The translations under genes and the position numbers were made by a program. The notes beneath the pieces were generated by a model. That model made no database searches. It was not told the DNA's origin and saw nothing but the letters and a program-made list of their open reading frames with translations. Below are positions 3,239 to 60,084 of a DNA stretch of 64,000 bases, piece by piece. The stretch comes from Escherichia phage EC150. How positions within the stretch are numbered: position 1 is the first letter of the stretch; every line of letters begins with the position of its first letter. Where the stretch lies: sequence record ON210137.1. One strand, 5' to 3'.

Positions 3239-3258
3239 CCAATTTGCACTATAAAACG

Positions 3259-3291
3259 GCCCTAGAACACATTTTCTCCACTTCTAGGGCC
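3259..3291. terminator. Perfect 10-bp stem hairpin (GGCCCTAGAA / TTCTAGGGCC, 13-nt loop) between convergent genes
   Basis: Inverted repeat read directly; 20 nt after stop of CDS 2764..3238; weak U-tract on minus strand only. Confidence 0.45.
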
Positions 3292-3666
3292 ATCGGTAAT
3301 ACGACGGGGAAGGTTACAACCATAAACGCGTTAGAAAGTGTATTATTATAAGTCATCTTTTAGTCACTTTACGTAACAATTTACGACCTTCCGCCGTCCA
3401 GTCGAACGACTCCACCAGCAGATTTGCACTATAACCTAAGACGATGCGCCCTTTCTCGTTATCGACCCGCCAACAAGTCTCGAATAGCATTCGATTTGCA
3501 CTATTAACTATCGCCGCAACGCGCGCTGGGTAAGCGCAATTTGCACTATGGTCGTAAAGGGATAAGGTGCGACCACTTCCGATGGACAACGTAGCGATGA
3601 GAATAAGCGTATTCATAAGCCACCAATTTGCACTATGAAAAGCGACCCCGAAGGGCCGCCATTCGA

Positions 3667-4726: not shown

Positions 4727-4756
4727 ATTATAATATAGTGTAGAAAAAAGTAAAGC
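4727..4756 (-). promoter_or_regulatory. sigma70-like promoter TTTACT-16-TATAAT for CDS 4374..4658
   Basis: Reverse complement of 4727-4756 reads TTTACTTTTTTCTACACTATATTATAAT; same architecture as the two promoters below. Confidence 0.5.
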
Positions 4757-4798: not shown

Positions 4799-4826
4799 TT
4801 TACTTCTTCGTACACTCGCGTATACT
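4799..4826 (+). promoter_or_regulatory. sigma70-like promoter TTTACT-16-TATACT for CDS 4882..5184
   Basis: CCTTTACTTCTTCGTACACT...TATACT read directly; followed by TATATCGAGACGGG leader element. Confidence 0.5.
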
Positions 4827-5184: not shown

Positions 5185-5196
5185 CGAAAAAGTGCT

Positions 5197-5224
5197 TTAC
5201 TTCTTCGTACACTAAGACTATAAT
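5197..5224 (+). promoter_or_regulatory. sigma70-like promoter TTTACT-16-TATAAT for CDS 5292..5582
   Basis: GCTTTACTTCTTCGTACACT...TATAAT read directly; leader shares ATATCGAGAGGGG, GAATAGGTCG and CTCCCAACTAGGAG with the leader of CDS 4374..4658. Confidence 0.5.
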
Positions 5225-7387: not shown

Positions 7388-7488
7388 GATTATGCCGCTG
7401 CAGCGTAAACAATTGCATAAGCAATTCCAAACAGCGCAGCAATACATACCGTGCCCCAAAATGCAAAGCGTCGTGACTCTTTATCCAT

Positions 7489-7722: not shown

Positions 7723-7777
7723 AATACACCTCACTTGTTAACGTATAATGAGTATAACTTAATCGAGCATAAAGTAA

Positions 7778-7797
7778 AGGCGCTTTTCAGCGCCTTG
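7778..7797 (-). terminator. hairpin (GGCGC-TTTTCA-GCGCC) downstream of the minus-strand tail fibre gene
   Basis: Palindrome 7 nt below the stop of CDS 7804..10119; moderately T-rich downstream on the minus strand. Confidence 0.5.
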
Positions 7798-7803
7798 AGT
7801 GAA

Positions 7804-10119
7804 TTATTTTGCTGATTTCAGCACGGCTATCTCTGCCTTGAGTTCATCAATCTGATCCATCAATGCGAGAATAGCCTCGTGGTGCAATGCCGCTGCAACG
7901 CCGTAAGTGTCAACTGACTTGATATCTTCGACAACAGTCCCATCCTTGAGTTCCGTGTTTGAATATTTCAAAGTTTTTACTGCGTCAGGAAATACACCTT
8001 CTACATCTTGAGCTATAAATCCGATGCCATTCGGTTTCTCTGACTTATCAAGGCGCTCCCAAGTCACACCCTTGATCAATCTCATCTTTCCTAACGGGTC
8101 GGAAATCCTTTGAATATTTGTTTTGACCCTCTCATCAGACGTGCTGACCCAGTTCCCTGCAGTAGCAGTACCATCAGGCATAAATTTGAAATCTGCTGCA
8201 GCGCCTTGCCCATTGTTTATGGATATTTGCGCGTGCATCAAATCAGTTCCAGTACCTCGAACGCCTCCGAATGTATAGCTGCCAGCATACCAATCCCCTG
8301 AAAAATATGATACATACCCAGGCGTTGACTGGTTGAAGTTTATCATCCTCATACCGTTGCTTTCATACGCTGAAACGCCTACTGAATTCAACGGTTGCAC
8401 AACAAGGTCTTTTGGTCTGAGATATGCATTAACATTCAGCGCCCCGTCTGTCCTTTCCGTACTAATTTGATTTATGGAGTTAGGGAAATAAAATGTGCCA
8501 TCTTGCGCAAACTTCCATTCTTGCACCCCATTAGATATCACAGCACCTTGTTCAGACGTTAATCCATCAATCTTACCGTATGCTTGCAAGAATGCTTGAT
8601 ACGCAATGTTGGTGCCAATTTTATATTCAGATTTTACACTGCCGCCACTGACAAGCGTTCCGGTTGCAGGTTTTACTGCGTCACCATTAATAACGCTCCA
8701 AGTCGTATTCGCAGCAGCAAATCCACCCGATGCACGAATCACCCAAACGCCTACAAAGTTACGACCCATTATTTCACTGTTTGAACGGCCATAAACCGGA
8801 CTTACTCGCGAAGCATCAAAACTCACCCTAATAACACCATTACCAGTTACCGGTTCTGGTGACAATGGTGTTTCTACCTGACCCGGTACAATAGCACCCG
8901 TCTGCCCGTAGGCGACGACGCCACCAATATCCCCGTAAATGTTTGGTGCAGCTGAATCAAACACAACACCATCAGCGTTGGAGTTTGCGGTGCCATTTCC
9001 TGCGCCGTCACCTCGTCCATAAAGAGCGGCTAATGAACCGACTTGAACGCCGTTTTTGTCGGGCACACGGAAAGTCGTTGAGCCATTACCAAGAGAATAC
9101 TTTCCGCGCTTTGTTGGGTCCGCAAGCCAATCCGCATCAGCAATAGGAGTCAGCATTTGAGCATATGCCCAAAGCTCAGGCCAGTCTGCGCGGTTAAGCA
9201 ATTGCCCGTCTGCAACAACTTCATATGGCTGGATGTAAGCACGGCTATCACGAAGATGAAAATCACCAACACCATAGTTCATTACACCGTTCATGTTCGG
9301 TCCAACGGTGCCAGTGTTGATAAGGTTTTCAACCCAACGTTTAGTCGCAGCATCATAATCATTCACAGGGTCACCAGCAAGCGGAGTTGGGCCTGTCGGT
9401 CGAATATTCAACCAAGCCTGCGCATTATCCCCTGATCCTGTGCCGCCCATGGAAGTGGGCACGATATTTTGATCAGCGACTTGTCCGAATCCAAAAGCAG
9501 ACTTCATGCCCTGAATAGTACTCTGCCCTGTGCCACCGTTTGCCACTGGTACTACATCAAGTTCGCTATAAACCTTTTTCCAAGGTGACCAAAAGTCGCC
9601 ATTAAATACCCTGTTGTATTCAGGGCCAACCGTTGCTGTGTATTTTTGTGAACAAGCATTTGCTGAAATTTGGATTACTTCCAATACTCCAGACGATAAG
9701 GTTGGGTAGTTCAAAGCAGGTGATGCTGATAGACTGTTCGGCTGGTAATATTGGCCAAACCATGAACCAGTCAAAGCATTGAGATTTATTCCGTTAGGAA
9801 TCTCTCCAAAGTTTCGGACAGTACCCGTCAAAGTCGCAGCAGTAGTTCGAATGGAAAGCATGTCGCCAGCCGCCCATGCACGCGCTGCAGTTCCTTCCTG
9901 TGCACGCTGCACGGTCAGGACGTTTCCAACAACGGCTGTTACTGTGACGATTTCGAATTGGAGGCCTGTCGCAGCGTCTACGATTGTCGCCACTACACGC
10001 TCGTTTGCAGCCAAGGTCGGAAATCCCGACCCTGAGCGAATTGTGATTGTGGTGTCTGAAGTCGTCGTTGGCTGAGCGAGCGCGACCTCAAAGTTGTTTT
10101 TGAATATTAGCCTTGGCAT
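7804..10119 (-). CDS. tail fibre / tailspike protein with C-terminal intramolecular chaperone (peptidase S74-type) domain
   Basis: 771 aa; C-terminus contains SDERVKTNI and GIGFIAQDVEGVFP, which I recognise as intramolecular chaperone motifs of phage tail spikes/fibres; Gly-rich central region. Confidence 0.75.
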   Translation of the reverse strand: MPRLIFKNNFEVALAQPTTTSDTTITIRSGSGFPTLAANERVVATIVDAATGLQFEIVTVTAVVGNVLTVQRAQEGTAARAWAAGDMLSIRTTAATLTGTVRNFGEIPNGINLNALTGSWFGQYYQPNSLSASPALNYPTLSSGVLEVIQISANACSQKYTATVGPEYNRVFNGDFWSPWKKVYSELDVVPVANGGTGQSTIQGMKSAFGFGQVADQNIVPTSMGGTGSGDNAQAWLNIRPTGPTPLAGDPVNDYDAATKRWVENLINTGTVGPNMNGVMNYGVGDFHLRDSRAYIQPYEVVADGQLLNRADWPELWAYAQMLTPIADADWLADPTKRGKYSLGNGSTTFRVPDKNGVQVGSLAALYGRGDGAGNGTANSNADGVVFDSAAPNIYGDIGGVVAYGQTGAIVPGQVETPLSPEPVTGNGVIRVSFDASRVSPVYGRSNSEIMGRNFVGVWVIRASGGFAAANTTWSVINGDAVKPATGTLVSGGSVKSEYKIGTNIAYQAFLQAYGKIDGLTSEQGAVISNGVQEWKFAQDGTFYFPNSINQISTERTDGALNVNAYLRPKDLVVQPLNSVGVSAYESNGMRMINFNQSTPGYVSYFSGDWYAGSYTFGGVRGTGTDLMHAQISINNGQGAAADFKFMPDGTATAGNWVSTSDERVKTNIQRISDPLGKMRLIKGVTWERLDKSEKPNGIGFIAQDVEGVFPDAVKTLKYSNTELKDGTVVEDIKSVDTYGVAAALHHEAILALMDQIDELKAEIAVLKSAK

Positions 10120-10157
10120 TTTACGGTCCTCGTTTTGTCGACAACCGTATTATAACC

Positions 10158-10499
10158 TTAATTTCTTTTGAGAGGAATATGGCGGTTGCTGTCATTATTT
10201 GGTTTAATAATGAGCATAAAAACGATTAGAAAGATGATGGCTGATATACTTAATTCAATCAGCGCGGCTTGAGATATAGATTGATCTTCATGATACTGCT
10301 TTTGCATTTCTGCTTTCTTCTGAGCGCAAACTTCAGGTGATATGTAATCGCCTTTTGAGTTGCCATAATAAATCTCGCCATTCTCAGAAATAAGCCTGCC
10401 GCAAATATCCGTGTCAGCCTTTGCGCTTGACATCATAATAACGGTGCCGATGATAGCGGCAATTGTCCAGATTAGCAGTTGTGATAAGGTATTATTCAT
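10158..10499 (-). CDS. membrane-anchored exported protein (N-terminal signal peptide, C-terminal transmembrane helix)
   Basis: ORF track; hydrophobic N- and C-termini; AAAGAGG Shine-Dalgarno on minus strand. Confidence 0.5.
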   Translation of the reverse strand: MNNTLSQLLIWTIAAIIGTVIMMSSAKADTDICGRLISENGEIYYGNSKGDYISPEVCAQKKAEMQKQYHEDQSISQAALIELSISAIIFLIVFMLIIKPNNDSNRHIPLKRN

Positions 10500-10694
10500 G
10501 ATAACCTCTTTAATTCCCTTCCCATATCGGGAAGGGTGAATATTATTTTACGCGAAAGAATAGGCGCGTGCCACACAGCGAGTCCCAACGGCCCTCACCA
10601 TCCCATATCGACCCAACACCAGCGGTGATTGGGCCAGCAGAATTGGCGGCATTGGCCCAGGCTAGACGTTTCAACTTCCAACTGCACCAACGAT

Positions 10695-10928
10695 TCACAT
10701 TTCATCTCCAGATTGCAAAACAAGTCCCGCATAGATGATTGCTAAAGCTAAAGGCGCACCACTTCCCGCCTCTCTGTTCTCTTTAATCTGAAGAGCATCC
10801 TTAAGGAATTGCAACTGAACGTTGAATTCATTTTCAATTCCAAGCACTCCAGACAATCCTTTTACAGAATCTGCATATGCCTTGTCTAGCACTTCTTTTG
10901 GTACTGTTAAAGTCAATTCATTTGCCAT
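10695..10928 (-). CDS. small protein with C-terminal hydrophobic segment
   Basis: ORF track; internal Met start chosen to limit overlap with upstream gene. Confidence 0.4.
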   Translation of the reverse strand: MANELTLTVPKEVLDKAYADSVKGLSGVLGIENEFNVQLQFLKDALQIKENREAGSGAPLALAIIYAGLVLQSGDEM

Positions 10929-11139
10929 TTTCTTTCCACTCCACGAATGTACTGCCACTTGTTTCTCTATTTAGCAGGTATCTGCCGCGCATTCCATGAA
11001 GGCTGAACTCAACCGTCGATGGATTAGATTTTGAAAGCCACATCACTTGACCGTCGAATGGTCCGCCGATGCATGTGTATTTGGCCTTTGGCTCACTCCT
11101 TTTGGGTCGCTTTGCCCGCTCTTTGATTGATAGTCTCAT
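10918..11139 (-). CDS. hypothetical small basic protein (73 aa)
   Basis: ORF track. Confidence 0.35.
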   Translation of the reverse strand: MRLSIKERAKRPKRSEPKAKYTCIGGPFDGQVMWLSKSNPSTVEFSLHGMRGRYLLNRETSGSTFVEWKENGK

Positions 11140-11354
11140 CAGTCTTCACCTTGAGATTCAAGACAAGTAAGGACAAGCCACGTCATCGGAAGAATCAAAA
11201 CCAGAGAAATAAGTGACCAAATGGACCAACACAAGATGACAGACTTGAATGTGTGAACGTCGCCAAACGTAGCAGTGAAACAAAATCCCATTACGAAAGC
11301 AATCGCTGTGGAGTGATTATCAATGGCTTTGATGGCGCGGTCGATGAGTTTCAT
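11139..11354 (-). CDS. small membrane protein with two predicted transmembrane helices (71 aa)
   Basis: ORF track; two hydrophobic stretches. Confidence 0.45.
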   Translation of the reverse strand: MKLIDRAIKAIDNHSTAIAFVMGFCFTATFGDVHTFKSVILCWSIWSLISLVLILPMTWLVLTCLESQGED

Positions 11355-11435
11355 ATTACCTCCGGTTTTGAGTTAATATGATTATAATGCAGAATTTCAG
11401 AAAGGCAAACTTTTTGTGAATTTAAATTAAAAAAA

Positions 11436-11456
11436 TGGCCAGAAATAATCTGGCCA
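11436..11456. other. palindromic hairpin TGGCCAG-AAATAAT-CTGGCCA flanked by A-tracts on both sides
   Basis: Read directly; T-tract follows on the minus strand; lies at the boundary between the minus-strand block and terL. Confidence 0.4.
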
Positions 11457-11502
11457 AAAAGATCACCCTTTATCCACTACTAAGCTGGAATCATAATTTT
11501 AC

Positions 11503-11532
11503 TTGATATAGCTGTCTCAAGCAAACTATAAT
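11503..11532 (+). promoter_or_regulatory. putative sigma70 promoter TTGATA-18-TATAAT upstream of terL
   Basis: Hexamers read directly; TATAAT ends 1 nt before ATG 11533, which argues for ATG 11566 as the real start. Confidence 0.4.
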
Positions 11533-11565
11533 ATGAATAAAATATTAACACATAATTGGAAAGTC

Positions 11566-13649: not shown

Positions 13650-13744
13650 TTCAATCTCCTTTCGTTTGGTTAACTAAAATATAACTCAAAATGATACAAA
13701 AGCAAAATATTTTATGAACTATTTATGATCACCATACATATCAT

Positions 13745-13773
13745 TTGCTTACAAACACATGAATATTTATAAT
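13745..13773 (+). promoter_or_regulatory. putative sigma70 promoter TTGCTT-17-TATAAT upstream of portal gene
   Basis: Hexamers read directly. Confidence 0.45.
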
Positions 13774-17968: not shown

Positions 17969-18149
17969 AGAGGAAGTTATGCAAAAGATTATGCAGTCAC
18001 GTTACGTTAAAGTGCGAAATATTAATTGCAACTCTTTGCTTTCTTGGAAATGGGCTGTTTACGACTCGATGCTGATTGGCGTTTTAGTTGCTGGAGTGCT
18101 TTTTAATATTCACTGAATCGCCTGGCAATGGATTGCCGCAGGATTTCAC

Positions 18150-18425: not shown

Positions 18426-18540
18426 CTAATTAAGGCGCGCGGCTATATCGGTTGTTATACATATTCAAACCATAATTATTGTTTGCCTAAGTTTTTTTCA
18501 TTAGATATAATACACAATACTTATTTGAGGGTGGATGCGA

Positions 18541-24242: not shown

Positions 24243-25781
24243 GTGATCAGTCAATCTCGTTATATTAAAATTGTATCAGGGGTCGGAGCAGGCGCGGCTG
24301 TTGCAGTTCGCAAACTGTCGCTTCGCGTCATGACTTCTAATACAGTTCTGCCGCCGGGCATTGTAGCAGAATTTTCAACGGCTGATGCTGTTGGATCATA
24401 TTTCGGTTATTCTTCCGAAGAATATAAGCGCGCAGCATTATATTTTGGATTCATCAGCAAGCAAATTAACTCGCCTGATTCAATCAGCTTCTCGCGTATT
24501 GTTTCAACTGCGATTCCAGCAATGGTCATCGGTGATACTGAGCCTAAAGTGCTTGCTACGTTTCAAGCATTCACTGGCGCTATTTTAAGCATCACTTATG
24601 ATGGCACAGACTACCTGACTGACGCAATTAACCTTTCAGCGGCAACAAGTCTGGCGAATGTGGCTGAACTTCTGGAAACGGCAATCAATACTAAATTTGC
24701 AGCAGAAGGTGGCACGTCGGTGCCTGCACTTGCTGATGCAGAAGTGTATTGGAACGCTAATACTCAGCAGTTCACGCTGGAAGCAGCGCCGTCGACCGCT
24801 GGCGCAGGCAACCTGTCTATCAACGTCACAGGCCAACCGACCGACCCGTCTCAAGCATTGGGTTGGACCACCACTGGCACCGTAACCGTTGCAGGCCAGG
24901 GCGTTTCAAGTCCGGTAGAAGCAATCGCAGCATCTGTGGAAATCTCCAACAACTTCGGCTCATTCCTTTTTGCTGGGGCTGACCGAACTCTGGAAGAAAT
25001 TACCGCTGTGGCAGCGTGGAATCATTCGCAGAATAATATGTACATGTATTTATTCTCGACTTCGTTTGCTAATATCGGGTCATACTACACCGCTCTGAAA
25101 GGGTACTCAGGCGTTGGCATGATGATTCGCGCAACTAACCTTGCCAACGATTACATCGACCAAGCACCTGCTGAAATCCTCGCGGCAACAAACTATAATA
25201 CTGTGAATGCGACTCAAAACTACATGTATTATCAGTTTGATACTCGCAACGTGACTGTTTCAACTGACTCTCGCGCAGATACTGCTGATCAAAACCGTGC
25301 GAACTACATCGGCGCTACTCAGCAGGCCGGACAAACCTTGGCATTCTTCCAGCGCGGCGTATTGATGGGCGGGTCAACAGCAGCAGTTGATATGAACACT
25401 TATGCCAACGAAATGTGGCTCAAGTCTGCTATTACATCTCAGCTGTTCAGCATGTTCTTGAATCTTGGTCGCGTCCCTGCTAACGAAGAAGGGAAAGCGA
25501 CTGTGCAAGCCATGATTCAGGTTGCTGTGGATAACGCAAAAGTGAACGGCACCATCTCTGTTGGCAAGGCGCTGACTGAGATTCAGAAACAATACATCAC
25601 GCAAACTTCCGGTGACAACACTGCTTGGCGGCAGGTTGAAACTATCGGTTACTGGCTGACTGTAGATTTTGATACTGAAACCACTTCCGATGGGCGCACC
25701 GAATACTATGCAACATACACGCTAATCTACTCTAAAGATGATGCTGTGCGTCGCGTTGAAGGTCGTGACGTTCTTATCTAA
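24243..25781 (+). CDS. tail sheath protein (putative)
   Basis: 512 aa ORF followed by a small tube-like gene; AAGAGGA Shine-Dalgarno; GTG start. Confidence 0.6.
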   Translation: MISQSRYIKIVSGVGAGAAVAVRKLSLRVMTSNTVLPPGIVAEFSTADAVGSYFGYSSEEYKRAALYFGFISKQINSPDSISFSRIVSTAIPAMVIGDTEPKVLATFQAFTGAILSITYDGTDYLTDAINLSAATSLANVAELLETAINTKFAAEGGTSVPALADAEVYWNANTQQFTLEAAPSTAGAGNLSINVTGQPTDPSQALGWTTTGTVTVAGQGVSSPVEAIAASVEISNNFGSFLFAGADRTLEEITAVAAWNHSQNNMYMYLFSTSFANIGSYYTALKGYSGVGMMIRATNLANDYIDQAPAEILAATNYNTVNATQNYMYYQFDTRNVTVSTDSRADTADQNRANYIGATQQAGQTLAFFQRGVLMGGSTAAVDMNTYANEMWLKSAITSQLFSMFLNLGRVPANEEGKATVQAMIQVAVDNAKVNGTISVGKALTEIQKQYITQTSGDNTAWRQVETIGYWLTVDFDTETTSDGRTEYYATYTLIYSKDDAVRRVEGRDVLI

Positions 25782-39445: not shown

Positions 39446-40090
39446 ATGATTAATGCAAACGTAATATCTAAAGGGACCGGATGCAGCATGGATGTTGCAG
39501 AGAAATGGGTGGACCCTTTCAAGCAGGCTTGTGAGCACTACGGAATCAAAAGCAAGAATGCCATCGCGGCATTCCTTGCAAACGTAGGAGTAGAGACGGG
39601 CAGCTTGAAGACCTTTGTGGAAAATCTCAACTACTCTGCTCAAGGTCTTGCCAATACATGGCCTAGTCGTTACAGCGTCAGCGGTCGCTCTGGAAGTGCC
39701 CCGAACTCATTGGCCCTGTCGATTGCCCGTAAACCTGTGGAAATCGCCAATAATACATATGCAAACCGCATGGGCAACGGTTCAGTAGCATCTGGCGACG
39801 GTTGGAAGTACCGTGGCCGTGGTGCCATTCAGCTGACTGGAAAGGCCAACTATGCGGAATATACGCGTCAATCAGGCTATGATGCATTGAACAATCCTGA
39901 TATTCTGACTGAACCAAAATACATTGCTGACAGCGCGGCATGGTTCTTTAAGAATAGCGGCTGTATTCCTCTTGCGGATGCAGGAAATTTTGATTCAACC
40001 GTTAAGCGGATTAACGGGGCCGCGCCGAACGCAGCAAACCACGGTGAGTTGCGAAGAAAGCGTTACAAAGATGCACTAGCAGTTATGTAA
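39446..40090 (+). CDS. endolysin, glycoside hydrolase family 19-like
   Basis: Motifs AAFLANVGVETGSL and YRGRGAIQLTGKANY match GH19 chitinase/lysozyme catalytic region; last gene of late operon. Confidence 0.8.
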   Translation: MINANVISKGTGCSMDVAEKWVDPFKQACEHYGIKSKNAIAAFLANVGVETGSLKTFVENLNYSAQGLANTWPSRYSVSGRSGSAPNSLALSIARKPVEIANNTYANRMGNGSVASGDGWKYRGRGAIQLTGKANYAEYTRQSGYDALNNPDILTEPKYIADSAAWFFKNSGCIPLADAGNFDSTVKRINGAAPNAANHGELRRKRYKDALAVM

Positions 40091-40092
40091 GA

Positions 40093-40122
40093 AAAAGGCC
40101 CATATGGGCCTTTGTTTATTTT
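40093..40122. terminator. bidirectional rho-independent terminator (GGCCCA-TA-TGGGCC flanked by A-tract and T-tract)
   Basis: Perfect palindrome 40097-40110 with AAAAA upstream and TTTGTTTATTTT downstream; between convergent endolysin and minus-strand genes. Confidence 0.7.
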
Positions 40123-40328
40123 ACGGCTTCAACTTGGACGGGCGGAGCGGAACTTGTATCAATGTCTGGTAAGTCGAAATAATACCCCGCCATACCAATT
40201 GCACCCACAATCGCGGCCCGTGCCACCTTGCTGCTAATTGACTCCCCAATAAGCTTTACCAACAGGGATAAGATTTGAGACATCAAAGCCTTTTTCAGCC
40301 TTTTGTTTTCTTCCAAATCTTTCTGCAT
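40116..40328 (-). CDS. small membrane protein (one transmembrane helix), possible holin-like
   Basis: ORF track, internal Met start; hydrophobic AAIVGAIGMAGYYF; convergent with endolysin. Confidence 0.35.
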   Translation of the reverse strand: MQKDLEENKRLKKALMSQILSLLVKLIGESISSKVARAAIVGAIGMAGYYFDLPDIDTSSAPPVQVEAVK

Positions 40329-40342
40329 AACTACCACCCATG

Positions 40343-40885
40343 TCAACGCACTTCCTGTGTCTTAACATTACCTGAAGCATCTCTCAAGGGCAGTGGATAG
40401 TAGGCCATTTGGTAGTCTGATACGCCTTCAATGTGATAAAACACGATTACGTCTTTGCTGTTGATGAGCATGTTAACGATATCTGATTTATCTTCTGGAG
40501 TGAGTATTAGTGCGCCGCCTGTCCTGCTGTCTACTGCAACAGGGTATGTCTTGTCGACAAGGCCGCTGTCCAATGTATTATACCTGACAACGATTTCAGG
40601 GGCATCAACTTTTTCCATTGACATTCCGAACACAAACGACACGACCTGCCGACCGCGATCATTCATTACGCACATCTTTTCTTTGTCAAATCTTTCTTTT
40701 ATTGCGTCGTATTTATTCCAGCAAAACTCAAATGACTGCCCATTGTTGAAATATCTTGTCAAAACTTTTGCACTTCCATTCGGCGGCGTAAACATATTTT
40801 CAGCCGATGCAGTCTTGGTGAAGAATATAACTGTCAGCACAGCCATGATGATGATCAAAACAATCTTTAACTTGTTCGCTTTCAT
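40343..40885 (-). CDS. exported protein with N-terminal signal peptide (180 aa)
   Basis: N-terminal hydrophobic stretch then ASAEN (signal peptidase-like site). Confidence 0.5.
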   Translation of the reverse strand: MKANKLKIVLIIIMAVLTVIFFTKTASAENMFTPPNGSAKVLTRYFNNGQSFEFCWNKYDAIKERFDKEKMCVMNDRGRQVVSFVFGMSMEKVDAPEIVVRYNTLDSGLVDKTYPVAVDSRTGGALILTPEDKSDIVNMLINSKDVIVFYHIEGVSDYQMAYYPLPLRDASGNVKTQEVR

Positions 40886-42038: not shown

Positions 42039-42628
42039 TCAAACTCCTTATTCATCACTTGTTCCAGCGCATAGGCATAAGCCTGATCAGTCGATTTGAT
42101 AAACGTTCCGTTGTACATCACACCTTTACGGTCCTTGATGTCTTCATAGGCGGCTTGAGCGCAATCAGACAGTCGAAGTCCATAATCATGTGCTACGCCG
42201 GAAAGATAATCGACTGCGCCCATGATGGTGACATCAATATCCATACTTTGATTTTTAGCAATGGCGTCACCAAGCCGTCCAAGAGTCTTTGCCAAGCGAA
42301 GGATAAACGAGTGAGGGTGAGCGCCTTTGTCAGCGCAACCGCCGCCGTTGATGTCTTCGATTTTTGCACCGTTTTGCGCGGCAAGAATAGTTAACACAAC
42401 AAGGCAATCGCCGATGTCATCCTTGATTGCGGATTGTAAATCACAGATGGCCTGCTCTGTATATCCGATTTCAGGGTCAAAGAACACAAGGTCATGTAAT
42501 TGATCAACGTGGTCGGTCAACTCCCCAAACTCGCTAATAAGCTTCGGGTATTGGTCCTTAAGGTCGCAGCCTTGGATGATGTTACGTTCAGAAGCCCACT
42601 GGCGAATGTTTGCATAAATCTGGTTCAT
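42035..42628 (-). CDS. MazG-like nucleotide pyrophosphohydrolase (putative)
   Basis: All-alpha protein with EFGELTDHVDQLHD and DIGDCLVVL acidic motifs reminiscent of MazG EExxE/D boxes. Confidence 0.45.
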   Translation of the reverse strand: MNQIYANIRQWASERNIIQGCDLKDQYPKLISEFGELTDHVDQLHDLVFFDPEIGYTEQAICDLQSAIKDDIGDCLVVLTILAAQNGAKIEDINGGGCADKGAHPHSFILRLAKTLGRLGDAIAKNQSMDIDVTIMGAVDYLSGVAHDYGLRLSDCAQAAYEDIKDRKGVMYNGTFIKSTDQAYAYALEQVMNKEFE

Positions 42629-43143
42629 TTATTTTCCTTTGATGCGTTGAATTGATCGATTTTAATTTTAGCCTGATTATAAGTATCAATCAAGCTATTA
42701 ACCTTCTCTTTTAATCGGTTTGTTTCTGCGGCGAACTGAACAAGAAATCTGACATCGTCTTCTGATAGTCCACAGTTTCCTTCTGGGATAGAGAGGCGTC
42801 CAGTGGTCGCAGAGTCGGGCACACTCCTGAGTAACTCACGGGAGCAGCTGAGTTGCTCGCGCAGCTTGATATTCCCAGACTTGTAACGAGCAATAGTGTC
42901 ATCAGCAACCAGTTGCGCTTCCTGGCGACCCTTCTCATATGCCGATGCCGATTCAACCTGTAAAGATGCAATTTGCTCTTCGAGTGCATTTATCTTGTCC
43001 TTACGCTCATTAAGCGATGTCAGATATTGATTATCCTTTGCCAGTGATGCGTTGGTTTGCTGCAGGTCTTCAACGTATGATCCAGCGGCAAACGCGCCAA
43101 CAAGGGCAAGAATCTTCAGGAGCGGTACAATTCTTTCTATCAT
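42625..43143 (-). CDS. Rz-like inner-membrane spanin (i-spanin, putative)
   Basis: N-terminal transmembrane helix IVPLLKILALVGAFAAGSYV then coiled-coil region; embedded alternative-frame lipoprotein ORF. Confidence 0.5.
   Translation of the reverse strand: MIERIVPLLKILALVGAFAAGSYVEDLQQTNASLAKDNQYLTSLNERKDKINALEEQIASLQVESASAYEKGRQEAQLVADDTIARYKSGNIKLREQLSCSRELLRSVPDSATTGRLSIPEGNCGLSEDDVRFLVQFAAETNRLKEKVNSLIDTYNQAKIKIDQFNASKENK
42711..42938 (-). CDS. Rz1-like outer-membrane lipoprotein spanin (o-spanin, putative), embedded in alternate frame
   Basis: Alternate-frame ORF inside CDS 42625..43143; signal MRRVARKRNWLLMTLLLVTSLGISS followed by Cys (lipobox-like ISSC). Confidence 0.4.
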   Translation of the reverse strand: MRRVARKRNWLLMTLLLVTSLGISSCASNSAAPVSYSGVCPTLRPLDASLSQKETVDYQKTMSDFLFSSPQKQTD

Positions 43144-58911: not shown

Positions 58912-58912
58912 T

Positions 58913-58940
58913 TTGCTTTTATTTTTCTAGCAACTATAAT
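58913..58940 (+). promoter_or_regulatory. putative sigma70 promoter TTGCTT-16-TATAAT
   Basis: Hexamers read directly; followed by AGAGGTGA Shine-Dalgarno and ATG 58970. Confidence 0.5.
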
Positions 58941-59674: not shown

Positions 59675-59793
59675 ATTTAGGTATAGATACATATGAAAGC
59701 CGTAAAGAAATACACATTAATCATTTCCCTTGTTATCATCCTGGGGCTATTATATGTATTGGATATGGCATATTATTTGGCAGGGGTGAGTAA

Positions 59794-60084
59794 GTGAATA
59801 TTGTAATTCTTTATGGTGAGAATATCAGCGATGACGACATCGAAGTTGCCGTTGATGTTTACGGTATCGATGAGGTGAAACGTGTTGAAGAAATTAATGG
59901 CGCAAATCTTAACGAGATTGTCAAAGAAGCTGGTTGCCCTTCGGAAGAGATTCTGGTGGTTACTAACGATGACCTGTCTTCTATGGATTGTTTGCGTCGC
60001 ATCTTCACCGATTGCCAATACCTTCATGCTGTTCAGTCAGTAAACAAATTGAGAAAGGCATACGCTGACCAATTTCCTTGCTGA
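59794..60084 (+). CDS. hypothetical acidic protein (96 aa)
   Basis: ORF track; GTG start with AGGGGTGAG Shine-Dalgarno. Confidence 0.4.
   Translation: MNIVILYGENISDDDIEVAVDVYGIDEVKRVEEINGANLNEIVKEAGCPSEEILVVTNDDLSSMDCLRRIFTDCQYLHAVQSVNKLRKAYADQFPC

What the first reader, a model, noticed from the sequence alone, without database searches (positions are those of the whole stretch)
10158..11354. Cluster of small membrane proteins adjacent to the minus-strand tail fibre gene
Three to four small minus-strand ORFs encode a signal-peptide protein with a C-terminal anchor (10158..10499), a protein with a C-terminal hydrophobic helix (10695..10928) and a two-helix membrane protein (11139..11354). 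Small membrane proteins placed next to receptor-binding genes often mediate superinfection exclusion or receptor masking; a holin/antiholin role is also possible.
Basis: inference. Interest (0 to 1): 0.35.

Follow-up and report, generated by a model that had tools for sequence, protein, structure and literature searches.

The report
Conserved phage membrane-protein gene cluster
Five tiny genes beside the tail-fibre gene of a Wifcevirus coliphage, three encoding predicted inner-membrane proteins, are real, strictly conserved and mostly unique to this genus; their function is untested, and control of host lysis looks more likely than receptor masking.

Summary
The window is a Wifcevirus, an E. 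coli myovirus related to WFH, ECML-117, vB_Eco4M-7 and Bas98-101.

**What is there.** They belong to a five-gene minus-strand unit, E-D-C-B-A.
- It starts at an invariant sigma70-like promoter.
- It ends immediately upstream of the T-shaped tail-fibre gene.

**The proteins.**
- A (113 aa) has a signal-like N-terminus, a 49-residue two-cysteine periplasmic segment, a C-terminal anchor and a basic tail.
- E (71 aa) is a helical hairpin.
- C (77 aa) has a borderline C-terminal hydrophobic helix.
- B and D are basic and soluble.

**Conservation.** All five ORFs are intact in 22 genomes examined, with dN/dS of 0.02-0.24. A is as constrained as the terminase. A, C and E have no detectable relatives outside the genus, match no known family, and A matches no known fold.

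**Interpretation.** None of A, C or E co-varies with the hypervariable receptor-binding parts of the fibre. None is a lipoprotein, so receptor masking is unlikely. The phage has a soluble GH19 endolysin and an i/o-spanin pair but no recognised holin, and A and E are the only holin-sized, strongly hydrophobic proteins in the genome. My best guess is lysis control (holin/antiholin), at about 0.35. Inner-membrane superinfection exclusion and other envelope roles remain open. An endolysin-adjacent homologue of Pantoea phage PA1 LRP is a rival holin candidate.

The parts
11436..11456 (-). Intrinsic terminator (TGGCCAGA-loop-TCTGGCCA followed by T7) that closes the upstream unit, so the cluster starts a new transcript
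   Evidence: -14.5 kcal/mol, z -5.0. In relatives it follows an extra 76-aa ORF that this window lacks.
11381..11409 (-). Sigma70-like promoter TTTGCCT-N16-TATAAT for the cluster
   Evidence: 10 of 12 matches. The -35 and -10 elements are invariant in 18 distinct aligned sequences. It belongs to a promoter class with 5 hits against 0.03 expected, which also precedes the portal and head-protease genes.
11351..11381 (-). Inverted repeat TCATATTAACTC / GAGGTAATATGA, running from the -10/start-site region to the Shine-Dalgarno sequence and ATG of E. Possible operator or translational hairpin.
   Evidence: (-9.2 kcal/mol, z -3.6); nearly invariant across the genus. Its function is inferred only.
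11139..11354 (-). Gene E: 71-aa two-helix membrane hairpin. TM1 is weakly hydrophobic and variable, TM2 is strongly hydrophobic and conserved, and the C-terminus ESQGED is acidic.
10918..11139 (-). Gene D: 73-aa basic soluble protein (pI 10.2), phrog_12090, function unknown
   Evidence: Distant homologues occur in Ralstonia, Pseudomonas, Stenotrophomonas, Xanthomonas and Vibrio phages.
10695..10928 (-). Gene C: 77-aa acidic protein with a borderline C-terminal hydrophobic helix (possibly tail-anchored). It is the most variable member.
10543..10698 (-). Gene B: 51-aa basic, Trp-rich soluble protein, GTG start overlapping the stop codon of C (GTGA)
10516..10536 (-). Stem-loop CCCTTCCC-GATAT-GGGAAGGG between B and A, with no U-tract. 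Stems are invariant and the loop is free to vary. Presumed RNA processing or stability element.
   Evidence: (-15.5 kcal/mol).
10158..10499 (-). Gene A: 113-aa predicted type I inner-membrane protein. It has a signal-like N-terminus (AKA|D), a 49-residue periplasmic beta-hairpin-plus-helix segment with Cys33 and Cys58, a C-terminal TM and a basic cytoplasmic tail.
10149..10154 (-). Perfect TATAAT in the invariant 38-nt spacer between A and the tail-fibre gene. Possible -35-less internal promoter for the fibre gene.
   Evidence: Read from the sequence; the spacer is invariant in all genomes. Function is inferred.
7804..10119 (-). T-shaped tail fibre (receptor-binding protein) with a Peptidase_S74 intramolecular chaperone. 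The N-terminal ~120 aa are conserved; the receptor-binding segments are hypervariable.
   Evidence: PMC11990801.
7777..7796 (-). Intrinsic terminator that ends the unit after the fibre gene
   Evidence: A terminator is annotated at the same place in WFC.
39446..40090 (+). Context: soluble GH19 endolysin with no SAR (signal-anchor-release) domain or signal sequence. It would need a holin.
40116..40328 (-). Context: 70-aa homologue of Pantoea phage PA1 'LRP', convergent with the endolysin gene. Rival holin-like candidate.
   Evidence: PMC11538084.
42625..43143 (-). Context: i-spanin, with the embedded o-spanin at 42711..42989 (lipobox LGISSC)

Best explanation
The cluster is a genus-specific inner-membrane module of Wifcevirus, transcribed leftwards from its own promoter. 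Read-through into the tail-fibre gene is likely.

**Proposed function.** I think its membrane proteins most likely supply the lysis-timing function that this phage otherwise lacks. E, a 71-aa helical hairpin, and/or A, a type I protein with a small disulfide-capable periplasmic domain, would accumulate in the inner membrane. At a set time they would permeabilise it, letting the soluble GH19 endolysin reach the cell wall. The i/o-spanins would then finish lysis. The second membrane protein, or C, would act as a regulator (antiholin).

**Shown:**
- The genes are real.
- Each has a predicted architecture.
- They are strongly conserved.
- They are independent of receptor specificity.
- No other holin is recognisable in the genome.

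**Inferred:**
- Membrane insertion and topology.
- Co-transcription with the fibre gene.
- The lysis role itself.
For: 1. The phage needs a holin and none is known. The endolysin is GH19 with no SAR (signal-anchor-release) domain or signal sequence. The i/o-spanins are present. No holin is annotated in the Wifcevirus annotations read here (Bas99 in full, plus the cluster region in about 15 other records), including the curated CPT and BASEL ones, and none is mentioned in the vB_Eco4M-7 paper.
2. By elimination, A and E stand out. A hydropathy scan of the 64-kb window, plus the 4 kb missing from it (read from Bas99), finds few other membrane proteins: the i-spanin, a 180-aa secreted protein and peptides of 31-45 aa. 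A and E are the only strongly hydrophobic proteins of 60-150 aa.
3. Conservation looks like a core function. All five genes are present and the same length in 22 of 22 genomes, apart from one extra residue in C in one genome. A, C, D and E are in 28 of 28 phage records. A has dN/dS 0.02 at dS 0.85, equal to the terminase. Flanking small ORFs come and go between genomes.
4. Being orphans restricted to the genus is typical of holins. A, C and E have no Pfam, PHROG, NCBIfam or PADLOC family, and A and E have no homologue in 5.8 billion clusters. For A, there is also none among 1.84 billion representatives read exhaustively.
5. E resembles class II holins in size and build. It has a weak, variable TM1 and a strong, conserved TM2.
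6. The transcription layout fits co-expression with morphogenesis genes. There is one conserved promoter, of the class that also precedes the portal and protease genes, and no intrinsic terminator before the end of the fibre gene.
7. Lysis genes are scattered in this genus. The endolysin lies at 39.4 kb and the spanins at 42.6 kb, so distance from the endolysin is no argument against a lysis role.
8. From memory: T4 likewise places its holin gene t directly after the tail-fibre genes 37 and 38.
Against: - There is no functional evidence of any kind.
- E ends in a short acidic tail (ESQGED) rather than the charged, usually basic, C-terminal domain typical of holins. A has a 49-residue periplasmic loop that no class II holin has.
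- Neither gene is next to the endolysin or the spanins.
- A rival candidate exists. The 70-aa protein convergent with the endolysin gene (40116..40328) is homologous to Pantoea phage PA1 LRP. That protein reportedly permeabilises E. coli and enhances endolysin killing (PMC11538084). However, those effects were modest, and its hydrophobic segment is weak (KD19 1.36).
- Expression timing is unknown. The promoter class also occurs in the replication region, and a possible separate promoter precedes the fibre gene.
- The sister genus Kylevirus has no A homologue and only an unproven E-like protein.
- The elimination argument fails if the holin is atypical, for example under 50 aa or only weakly hydrophobic.
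Confidence: 0.35

Rival explanations
1. Inner-membrane superinfection exclusion. A and/or E sit in the inner membrane of the infected cell. They block genome entry or the periplasmic step of ejection by later-arriving phages of the same kind, as T4 Imm and Sp or HK97 gp15 do. This would work independently of which O-antigen the fibre recognises.
For: - The proteins are small inner-membrane proteins of a virulent myovirus.
- The gene is adjacent to the receptor-binding gene.
- The promoter is host-type and could fire immediately after infection.
- The periplasmic segment of A is almost invariant (1 of 49 mature periplasmic residues varies in more than one genome). That fits a fixed partner such as the phage's own conserved ejection proteins.
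- A-E were not found in virion or lysate mass spectrometry (PMC7048862).
Against: - No match to any known exclusion family at E <= 1 and no structural match.
- Exclusion genes are usually accessory and patchy. These are universal and as constrained as the terminase.
- The known exclusion genes placed next to receptor-binding genes (T5 llp, lambdoid cor) are outer-membrane lipoproteins that track the receptor. This cluster has no lipobox and does not track it.
Confidence: 0.2
2. Another envelope-directed function, unrelated to lysis timing or exclusion. Examples are manipulation of host membrane physiology, cell division or envelope stress, or countering a membrane-associated host defence. E-D-C-B would act as one translationally coupled complex, with A as a separate factor. 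The holin would then be the endolysin-adjacent PA1-LRP homologue or an atypical small peptide.
For: - The 1, 11 and 4-nt overlaps of E/D/C/B suggest stoichiometric co-production of two membrane and two basic soluble proteins. That is not the usual make-up of a lysis cassette.
- D belongs to a family spread across unrelated phages of other hosts.
- An alternative holin candidate exists.
- Wifceviruses plate poorly on many strains they can lyse, so they interact strongly with host factors (PMC11990801).
Against: - No similarity to any defence or anti-defence family.
- Such accessory functions are normally variable between isolates, whereas this cluster is invariant in content.
- The hypothesis is broad and hard to falsify.
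Confidence: 0.25
3. A helper for assembly or attachment of the T-shaped tail fibre. The membrane proteins would provide a platform or chaperone for maturation of the fibre, or for joining it to the baseplate.
For: - The cluster is probably in the same transcription unit as the fibre gene.
- It is conserved to the same degree as the fibre's N-terminal anchor: mean distance 0.068 for the anchor, against 0.02-0.13 for A-E.
- Pantoea phage Kyle keeps the same layout, TerL / small genes / receptor-binding protein.
Against: - The fibre carries its own intramolecular chaperone, Peptidase_S74.
- Known fibre chaperones are soluble.
- A points its conserved domain into the periplasm, where no virion assembly takes place.
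- None of A-E was detected in particles.
Confidence: 0.07

Closest known systems
Class II holins (two TM domains, e.g. phage 21 S68, the pinholin)
   Same: E is 71 aa and forms a helical hairpin. Its first helix is weakly hydrophobic and rich in Ala, Gly and Thr; its second is strongly hydrophobic. Its hydropathy is at or above that of S21 and lambda S sequences recalled from memory.
   Different: - No sequence-family match.
- The C-terminus is six acidic residues, not a basic charged domain.
- It is not next to the endolysin.
- The endolysin is soluble GH19, not a SAR endolysin, so a pinholin would not suffice.
T4 holin T with antiholins RI/RIII
   Same: Lysis genes are dispersed around the genome. 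In T4, t lies directly after the tail-fibre genes (from memory). A periplasmic domain with a possible disulfide could serve as a regulatory sensor, as in T and RI.
   Different: A is a predicted type I protein (N-out after cleavage, C-in) with only 49 periplasmic residues. T is type II with about 160. There is no sequence or fold similarity.
T4 Imm and Sp (spackle); HK97 gp15: superinfection exclusion at the inner membrane or periplasm
   Same: Small membrane or periplasmic proteins made by the infecting phage. The periplasmic part of A is invariant, as expected for binding a conserved phage ejection protein.
   Different: There is no family hit and no fold match. The T4 genes are early and not linked to fibre genes (from memory). 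This cluster is universal and under very strong constraint.
T5 Llp and lambdoid/T1 Cor: receptor-masking lipoproteins encoded next to receptor-binding genes
   Same: The genes sit beside the receptor-binding protein gene.
   Different: - No lipobox: the residues before Cys33 are T-D-I.
- Predicted inner-membrane, not outer-membrane, location.
- No co-variation with the receptor-binding domains.
- The receptor here is O-antigen, not an outer-membrane protein.
Unimolecular spanin (T1 gp11)
   Same: A has an N-terminal signal-like segment and a C-terminal TM anchor, the u-spanin layout.
   Different: A has no lipoprotein signal. Its 49-residue periplasmic segment is far too short to span the periplasm. 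The phage already encodes an i/o-spanin pair.
Pantoea phage PA1 'LRP' (PMC11538084)
   Same: It comes from the same wider phage lineage and addresses the same unsolved question of a missing holin for a soluble GH19-type endolysin.
   Different: LRP's Wifcevirus homologue is a different gene (40116..40328), not part of this cluster. It competes with A and E for the holin role.

Membership tests
Holins (generic criteria of Wang, Smith and Young 2000, recalled from memory) | [quoted passage not shown] | tested here: met
   E is 71 aa with two hydrophobic helices. A is 113 aa with two hydrophobic segments. C is 77 aa with one borderline segment.
Holins (generic criteria) | Hydrophilic, highly charged (usually basic) C-terminal domain | tested here: inconclusive
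   A ends in KPNNDSNRHIPLKRN, which is basic and the most variable part of the protein. E ends in ESQGED, which is short and acidic.
Holins (generic criteria) | Gene adjacent to, or co-transcribed with, the endolysin or spanin genes | tested here: not met
   The endolysin is at 39446..40090 and the spanins at 42625..43143, about 28-32 kb away. This is a common feature rather than an absolute one: the lysis genes of this genus are already dispersed.
Holins (generic criteria) | Membership of a described holin sequence family | tested here: not met
   No Pfam, PHROG or NCBIfam hit for A, C or E at permissive thresholds.
Holins (generic criteria) | Lethal, energy-poison-triggerable hole formation that releases endolysin | not testable with these tools
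   Requires expression experiments.
Receptor-masking lipoproteins (T5 Llp, Cor) | Lipoprotein signal peptide with a lipobox cysteine | tested here: not met
   A has AKA|D followed by T-D-I-C, which is not a lipobox. C and E have no signal peptide.
Receptor-masking lipoproteins (T5 Llp, Cor) | Specificity linked to the receptor used by the adjacent receptor-binding protein | tested here: not met
   Mantel r is between -0.18 and 0.11 (p > 0.1) for A, C and E against every fibre segment. The receptor-binding segments have a mean distance of 0.5-0.6, against 0.02 for A.
T4 Imm / Sp superinfection-exclusion families | Sequence or fold similarity to Imm or Sp | tested here: not met
   No Pfam or NCBIfam hit at E <= 1. 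Foldseek of the A model against PDB and BFVD (a database of predicted viral protein structures) gave no match with E <= 0.001, but the model's pLDDT is only 64.
T4 Imm / Sp superinfection-exclusion families | Expression in trans lowers plating or DNA entry without affecting adsorption | not testable with these tools
   Requires plating and adsorption assays.
Unimolecular spanins | Outer-membrane lipoprotein N-terminus, C-terminal TM and a periplasm-spanning domain | tested here: not met
   A has no lipobox and only 49 periplasmic residues, and an i/o-spanin pair is already present.
Virion structural proteins | Detected in purified particles | tested here: not met
   Orthologues vB_Eco4M-7_28-31 and ECML-117 gp25-29 are absent from the published MS tables. 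The fibre and the neighbouring 76-aa protein were found (mapped). This is a weak negative, because small hydrophobic proteins are hard to detect.

The most novel reading that the evidence does not exclude
E and A together form a previously undescribed holin/antiholin pair. E would be a hairpin holin with an acidic tail. A would be a type I membrane protein whose invariant, disulfide-bonded periplasmic mini-domain senses the envelope. The pair would be co-expressed with the receptor-binding fibre and would set the unusually short latent period reported for this genus (3-5 min, cited in PMC11990801).
Probability: 0.12. Interest if true: 0.55.

Novelty: new member of a known kind. Interest (0 to 1): 0.3.

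Why it matters
**Why the genus matters.**
- Wifceviruses are used or proposed against E. coli O157.
- They have just become tractable on E. coli K-12 through the BASEL collection.
- They are relatives of the Pbunavirus phages used therapeutically.

**The open question.** No holin has been identified in this genus. For the related Pbunavirus and Pantoea (Kyle/PA1) phages I found only unvalidated computational holin annotations, or an explicit report that none could be identified. Naming A and E (with the PA1-LRP homologue as the rival) as the short list gives a directly testable route to that gene. Lysis timing matters for engineering, because members of this genus are reported to lyse within minutes.

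**If they turn out to be exclusion proteins.** They would then be a new inner-membrane exclusion family that is independent of the receptor.

**As it stands.** These are ordinary conserved hypothetical genes, already annotated as such in about 28 GenBank records.

Tried and rejected
**Family and homology searches**
- Pfam, PHROGs, NCBIfam and PADLOC on A-E gave only one hit, D to phrog_12090 (unknown function). Everything else was sub-threshold noise: DUF1422, YijD, KwaA, CRIM1_C.
- The word-indexed search of 5.8 billion protein clusters, run for A and for E, returned only Wifcevirus sequences. The exhaustive HMMER search of 1.84 billion representatives, run for A, did the same.
- tblastn against 50,697 phage records found A, C and E only in the genus.

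**Structure**
- AlphaFold models of A (pLDDT 64) and E (pLDDT 71) are plausible but of low confidence.
- Foldseek of A against BFVD and PDB gave nothing below E = 0.09. The WW-domain-like hits are not significant.

**Comparison with related genera**
- Pbunavirus Epa13 has membrane proteins near its terminase: gp34, called 'holin' in some annotations, and gp36, which has the same N-terminal-TM plus C-terminal-TM layout as A. Neither shows sequence similarity to the cluster.
- Pantoea phage Kyle gp019 has E-like architecture in the syntenic position. hhalign probability is only 2.5%, and a segment-preserving shuffle test gives z = 2.5-2.8. I regard homology as suggestive, not shown. A search for more gp019 relatives found only one near-identical protein.

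**Expression timing and sequence elements**
- Promoter class could not time the cluster. The TTTGCYT-N-TATAAT class precedes both structural and replication-region genes.
- The motif TCCCGATAT from the B/A hairpin is not enriched in the genome: 15 hits against 9.7 expected.
- Rfam found no RNA family in the region.

**Rejected readings**
- u-spanin for A: no lipobox, and the periplasmic segment is too short.
- Lipoprotein receptor mask.
- Virion component.

**Literature**
- Papers on vB_Eco4M-7, Mansfield, the BASEL collection, synthetic O157 phage and Pbunavirus isolates hold no functional data on these genes.
Full report
**Identity of the window.**
- Megablast of 7000-13700 matches about 40 phage records at 90-97% identity. 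Nearly all are Escherichia or Shigella myoviruses of the genus Wifcevirus: WFH, WFC, ECML-117, FEC19, vB_Eco4M-7, Mansfield and Bas98-101.
- One record places the genus in the family Lindbergviridae.
- It is distantly related to the Pbunavirus phages of Pseudomonas (PMC11990801).
- The finding lies between the large-terminase gene (plus strand, from about 11566) and the 771-aa tail fibre (minus strand, 7804..10119).
- The BASEL study describes that fibre as a T-shaped fibre with two hypervariable receptor-binding domains and a C-terminal intramolecular chaperone, targeting O-antigen.

**Checking the observation.**
They are part of a five-gene string on the minus strand: E 11139..11354, D 10918..11139, C 10695..10928, B 10543..10698 and A 10158..10499.
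- E/D, D/C and C/B overlap by 1, 11 and 4 nt, which implies translational coupling. A follows after a 43-nt spacer. The fibre gene follows A after an invariant 38-nt spacer. Every gene has a Shine-Dalgarno sequence.
  - A has a 16-residue hydrophobic N-terminal core ending in A-K-A|D, with no basic residue before it. Then come a 49-residue hydrophilic segment predicted as a small beta-hairpin plus helix with Cys33 and Cys58, a strong C-terminal TM and a basic tail. The GenBank note on its vB_Eco4M-7 orthologue independently records a Phobius signal peptide plus TM.
  - E is a two-helix hairpin.
  - C has a C-terminal hydrophobic stretch. It is as hydrophobic over 15 residues as a holin TM recalled from memory, but falls just under the 19-residue threshold.
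  - B and D are small, basic and soluble.

**Are they real genes?** Yes.
- I extracted the locus from 22 genomes: 18 GenBank records, three metagenomic contigs at about 85% DNA identity, and the window. All five ORFs are intact, and their lengths are identical except for one extra residue in C in one genome.
- Against the most divergent relatives, dN/dS is 0.02 for A (36 synonymous against 4 non-synonymous changes, dS 0.85), 0.07 for B, 0.23 for C and 0.14 for D. The terminase measured the same way gives 0.02. For E, dN/dS is about 0.03-0.12 against the closer relatives; the alignment to the divergent ones was gapped, so no value was obtained there.
- A has 10 variable columns out of 113. Most lie in the cytoplasmic tail or at residue 29, which would be the first residue after signal cleavage. 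The periplasmic segment is essentially invariant.
- In E, the first helix varies while the second helix and both termini are fixed.

**Transcription unit.**
- A terminator hairpin at 11436..11456 closes whatever lies upstream.
- A sigma70-like promoter, TTTGCCT-N16-TATAAT (11381..11409), follows. Its two elements are invariant in all genomes, including those where the upstream sequence is unrelated.
- The pattern TTTGCYT-N15-18-TATAAT occurs five times in the window against 0.03 expected. It also precedes the portal and head-protease genes, but a copy lies in the replication region too, so it does not fix the timing.
- Between B and A lies a strong stem-loop (-15.5 kcal/mol) without a U-tract. 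Its stems are invariant while its loop varies, so I read it as a conserved RNA element rather than a terminator.
- The next intrinsic terminator on this strand lies after the fibre gene, at 7777..7796.
- A perfect TATAAT in the A-fibre spacer may give the fibre gene an additional promoter.

**What the proteins are not.**
- A, B, C and E match no Pfam, PHROG, NCBIfam or PADLOC family. D matches phrog_12090, of unknown function, with distant relatives in Ralstonia, Pseudomonas, Xanthomonas, Stenotrophomonas and Vibrio phages.
- A, C and E are found in all 28 Wifcevirus records and in no other phage record.
- For A and E, searches of 5.8 billion protein clusters return only Wifcevirus sequences, as does an exhaustive search of 1.84 billion representatives for A.
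- The A model has no significant structural neighbour.
- None of the five orthologues appears in the published mass-spectrometry tables for vB_Eco4M-7 and ECML-117. The fibre and a neighbouring 76-aa protein do appear, and that protein's gene is absent from this window.

**Testing receptor masking.**
- Known maskers encoded beside receptor-binding genes are T5 Llp and Cor. From memory, they are outer-membrane lipoproteins matched to the receptor.
- This cluster has no lipobox and is predicted to sit in the inner membrane.
- Across the 22 genomes, the fibre's receptor-binding segments differ by 50-60% on average. A differs by 2%, E by 7.5% and C by 13%.
- Mantel correlations of A, C and E with every fibre segment are near zero: r between -0.18 and 0.11, p > 0.1.
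- A receptor-independent block of DNA entry at the inner membrane is not excluded.

**Testing the lysis reading.**
- The phage encodes a GH19 endolysin without a SAR domain or signal sequence (39446..40090). It also encodes an i-spanin with an embedded o-spanin carrying a good lipobox (42625..43143 and 42711..42989).
- No holin is annotated in the Wifcevirus records I read, including the CPT and BASEL annotations.
- A hydropathy scan was run on the window, and on the 4 kb of genome missing from it (read from Bas99). A and E are the only strongly hydrophobic proteins of typical holin size. The others are the i-spanin, a 180-aa secreted protein (40343..40885) and peptides of 31-45 aa.
- Because the lysis genes are already scattered, distance from the endolysin is not a strong objection. 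From memory, T4 places its holin gene directly after its tail-fibre genes.
- Universal presence, very strong constraint and orphan status all fit a holin or antiholin.

**Evidence against the lysis reading.**
- E has a short acidic C-terminus, and A has a long periplasmic loop. Neither is typical of holins.
- The 70-aa protein convergent with the endolysin gene (40116..40328, phrog_5165) is homologous to Pantoea phage PA1 LRP and Kyle gp055.
- LRP was reported to permeabilise E. coli and to enhance killing when fused or co-expressed with that phage's endolysin. The effects were modest, after hours of induction (PMC11538084).
- The hydrophobic segment of the Wifcevirus homologue is weak (KD19 1.36). 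It remains a genuine rival for the holin role.

**Relatives in other genera.**
- Pantoea phage Kyle keeps the same layout: the terminase gene, a divergent string of small genes, then the receptor-binding protein, which there is an EPS depolymerase.
- Kyle's string holds a 75-aa protein, gp019, with the same build as E: an amphipathic charged N-terminus, a weak TM, a short loop and a long Pro/Trp-containing TM. A 37-aa TM peptide sits directly before the receptor-binding gene.
- The end-to-end alignment of E with gp019 scores z = 2.5-2.8 against segment-preserving shuffles, but hhalign gives only 2.5% probability. Homology is possible, not shown.
- Pbunavirus Epa13 has a multi-TM protein (gp34, labelled 'holin' in some annotations) near its terminase. 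It also has a 133-aa protein (gp36) with an N-terminal TM and a C-terminal TM like A. Neither has detectable similarity to the cluster.
- Small membrane proteins next to the terminase are therefore a recurring theme in this lineage. The individual genes are not demonstrably the same.

**Verdict.**
Membrane targeting is well predicted, receptor masking is unlikely, and generic exclusion is possible.
- My estimates are:
  - about 0.35 for a lysis-timing role of E and/or A;
  - 0.2 for inner-membrane superinfection exclusion;
  - 0.25 for some other envelope-directed function;
  - under 0.1 for a fibre-assembly role.
- These are conserved hypothetical genes already present in public annotations, so the novelty is modest: at most a new family of a known kind. 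The value lies in giving a short, testable list for the missing holin of this phage group.

Noticed in passing
window 10516-10536 and 11436-11456: Both conserved hairpins have invariant 8-bp stems. In several relatives the 5-nt loop is the exact reverse complement (GATAT <-> ATATC, ATTAT <-> AATAA). This looks as if the loops are flipped by recombination or template switching between the arms.
   Followed up: partly
window 11381-11409(-), 13744-13773(+), 18482-18511(+), 24437-24465(-), 58912-58940(+): The promoter-like pattern TTTGCYT-N15-18-TATAAT occurs 5 times against 0.03 expected by shuffling. It sits before the E cluster, the portal gene, the head-protease gene and a block of small genes after the primase gene. 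One copy lies antisense inside the sheath gene.
   Followed up: partly
window 4738-4754(-), 4799-4815(+), 5196-5212(+): A repeated 17-mer, TTTACTTCTTCGTACAC, overlaps the -35 hexamer (TTTACT) of TATAAT/TATACT -10 boxes in the non-coding region near the terminal repeat. It is probably a distinct (early) promoter class.
   Followed up: no
window 11351-11381: The inverted repeat TCATATTAACTC / GAGGTAATATGA runs from the -10/start-site region to the Shine-Dalgarno sequence and ATG of gene E. It is nearly invariant in the genus. It could be an operator or a translational hairpin.
   Followed up: partly
window 11410-11532: A 76-aa ORF lies between E and the terminase gene in Mansfield, ECML-117, vB_Eco4M-7, Bas100/101 and TH32/35. 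It was detected by mass spectrometry in phage preparations with high scores. It is absent here, as in WFH, WFC, Bas98/99 and kaset; only its terminator remains.
   Followed up: partly
window 40116-40328(-) and 40343-40885(-): The 70-aa protein convergent with the endolysin gene is a homologue of Pantoea phage PA1 'lysis-related protein' (phrog_5165). Its upstream neighbour is a 180-aa protein with a clear signal peptide and no family.
   Followed up: partly
window 17979-18116(+): A 45-aa ORF with a C-terminal TM lies after the head-morphogenesis genes. It has a homologue in Pantoea phage Kyle (E = 3e-7) and a positional analogue in Pbunavirus Epa13 (gp22, 46 aa). It is a conserved tiny membrane protein inside the head module.
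   Followed up: partly
window 7390-7488(-), 3249-3356(-), about 59693-59797(+): Further annotated micro-ORFs of 32-35 aa consist almost entirely of one TM helix. One lies just downstream of the fibre gene.
   Followed up: no
window 11533-11565: The terminase ORF as listed (from 11533) is probably 11 codons too long. Many relatives annotate the start equivalent to 11566, and the divergent contigs L008-L010 carry a stop codon in the extension.
   Followed up: partly
L024 (Pantoea phage Kyle) 7601-9766: Kyle has the same layout: terminase gene, a divergent string of small genes, then the receptor-binding protein. The string includes a 75-aa E-like two-TM protein (gp019) and a 37-aa TM peptide directly before the EPS depolymerase gene. 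More very hydrophobic small proteins lie downstream of it.
   Followed up: partly
window 10918-11139(-): Gene D belongs to a small-protein family (phrog_12090, core motif around Y-x-C-x-G-G-P-x-D-G) spread over Ralstonia, Pseudomonas, Stenotrophomonas, Xanthomonas and Vibrio phages. All members are annotated as hypothetical.
   Followed up: no
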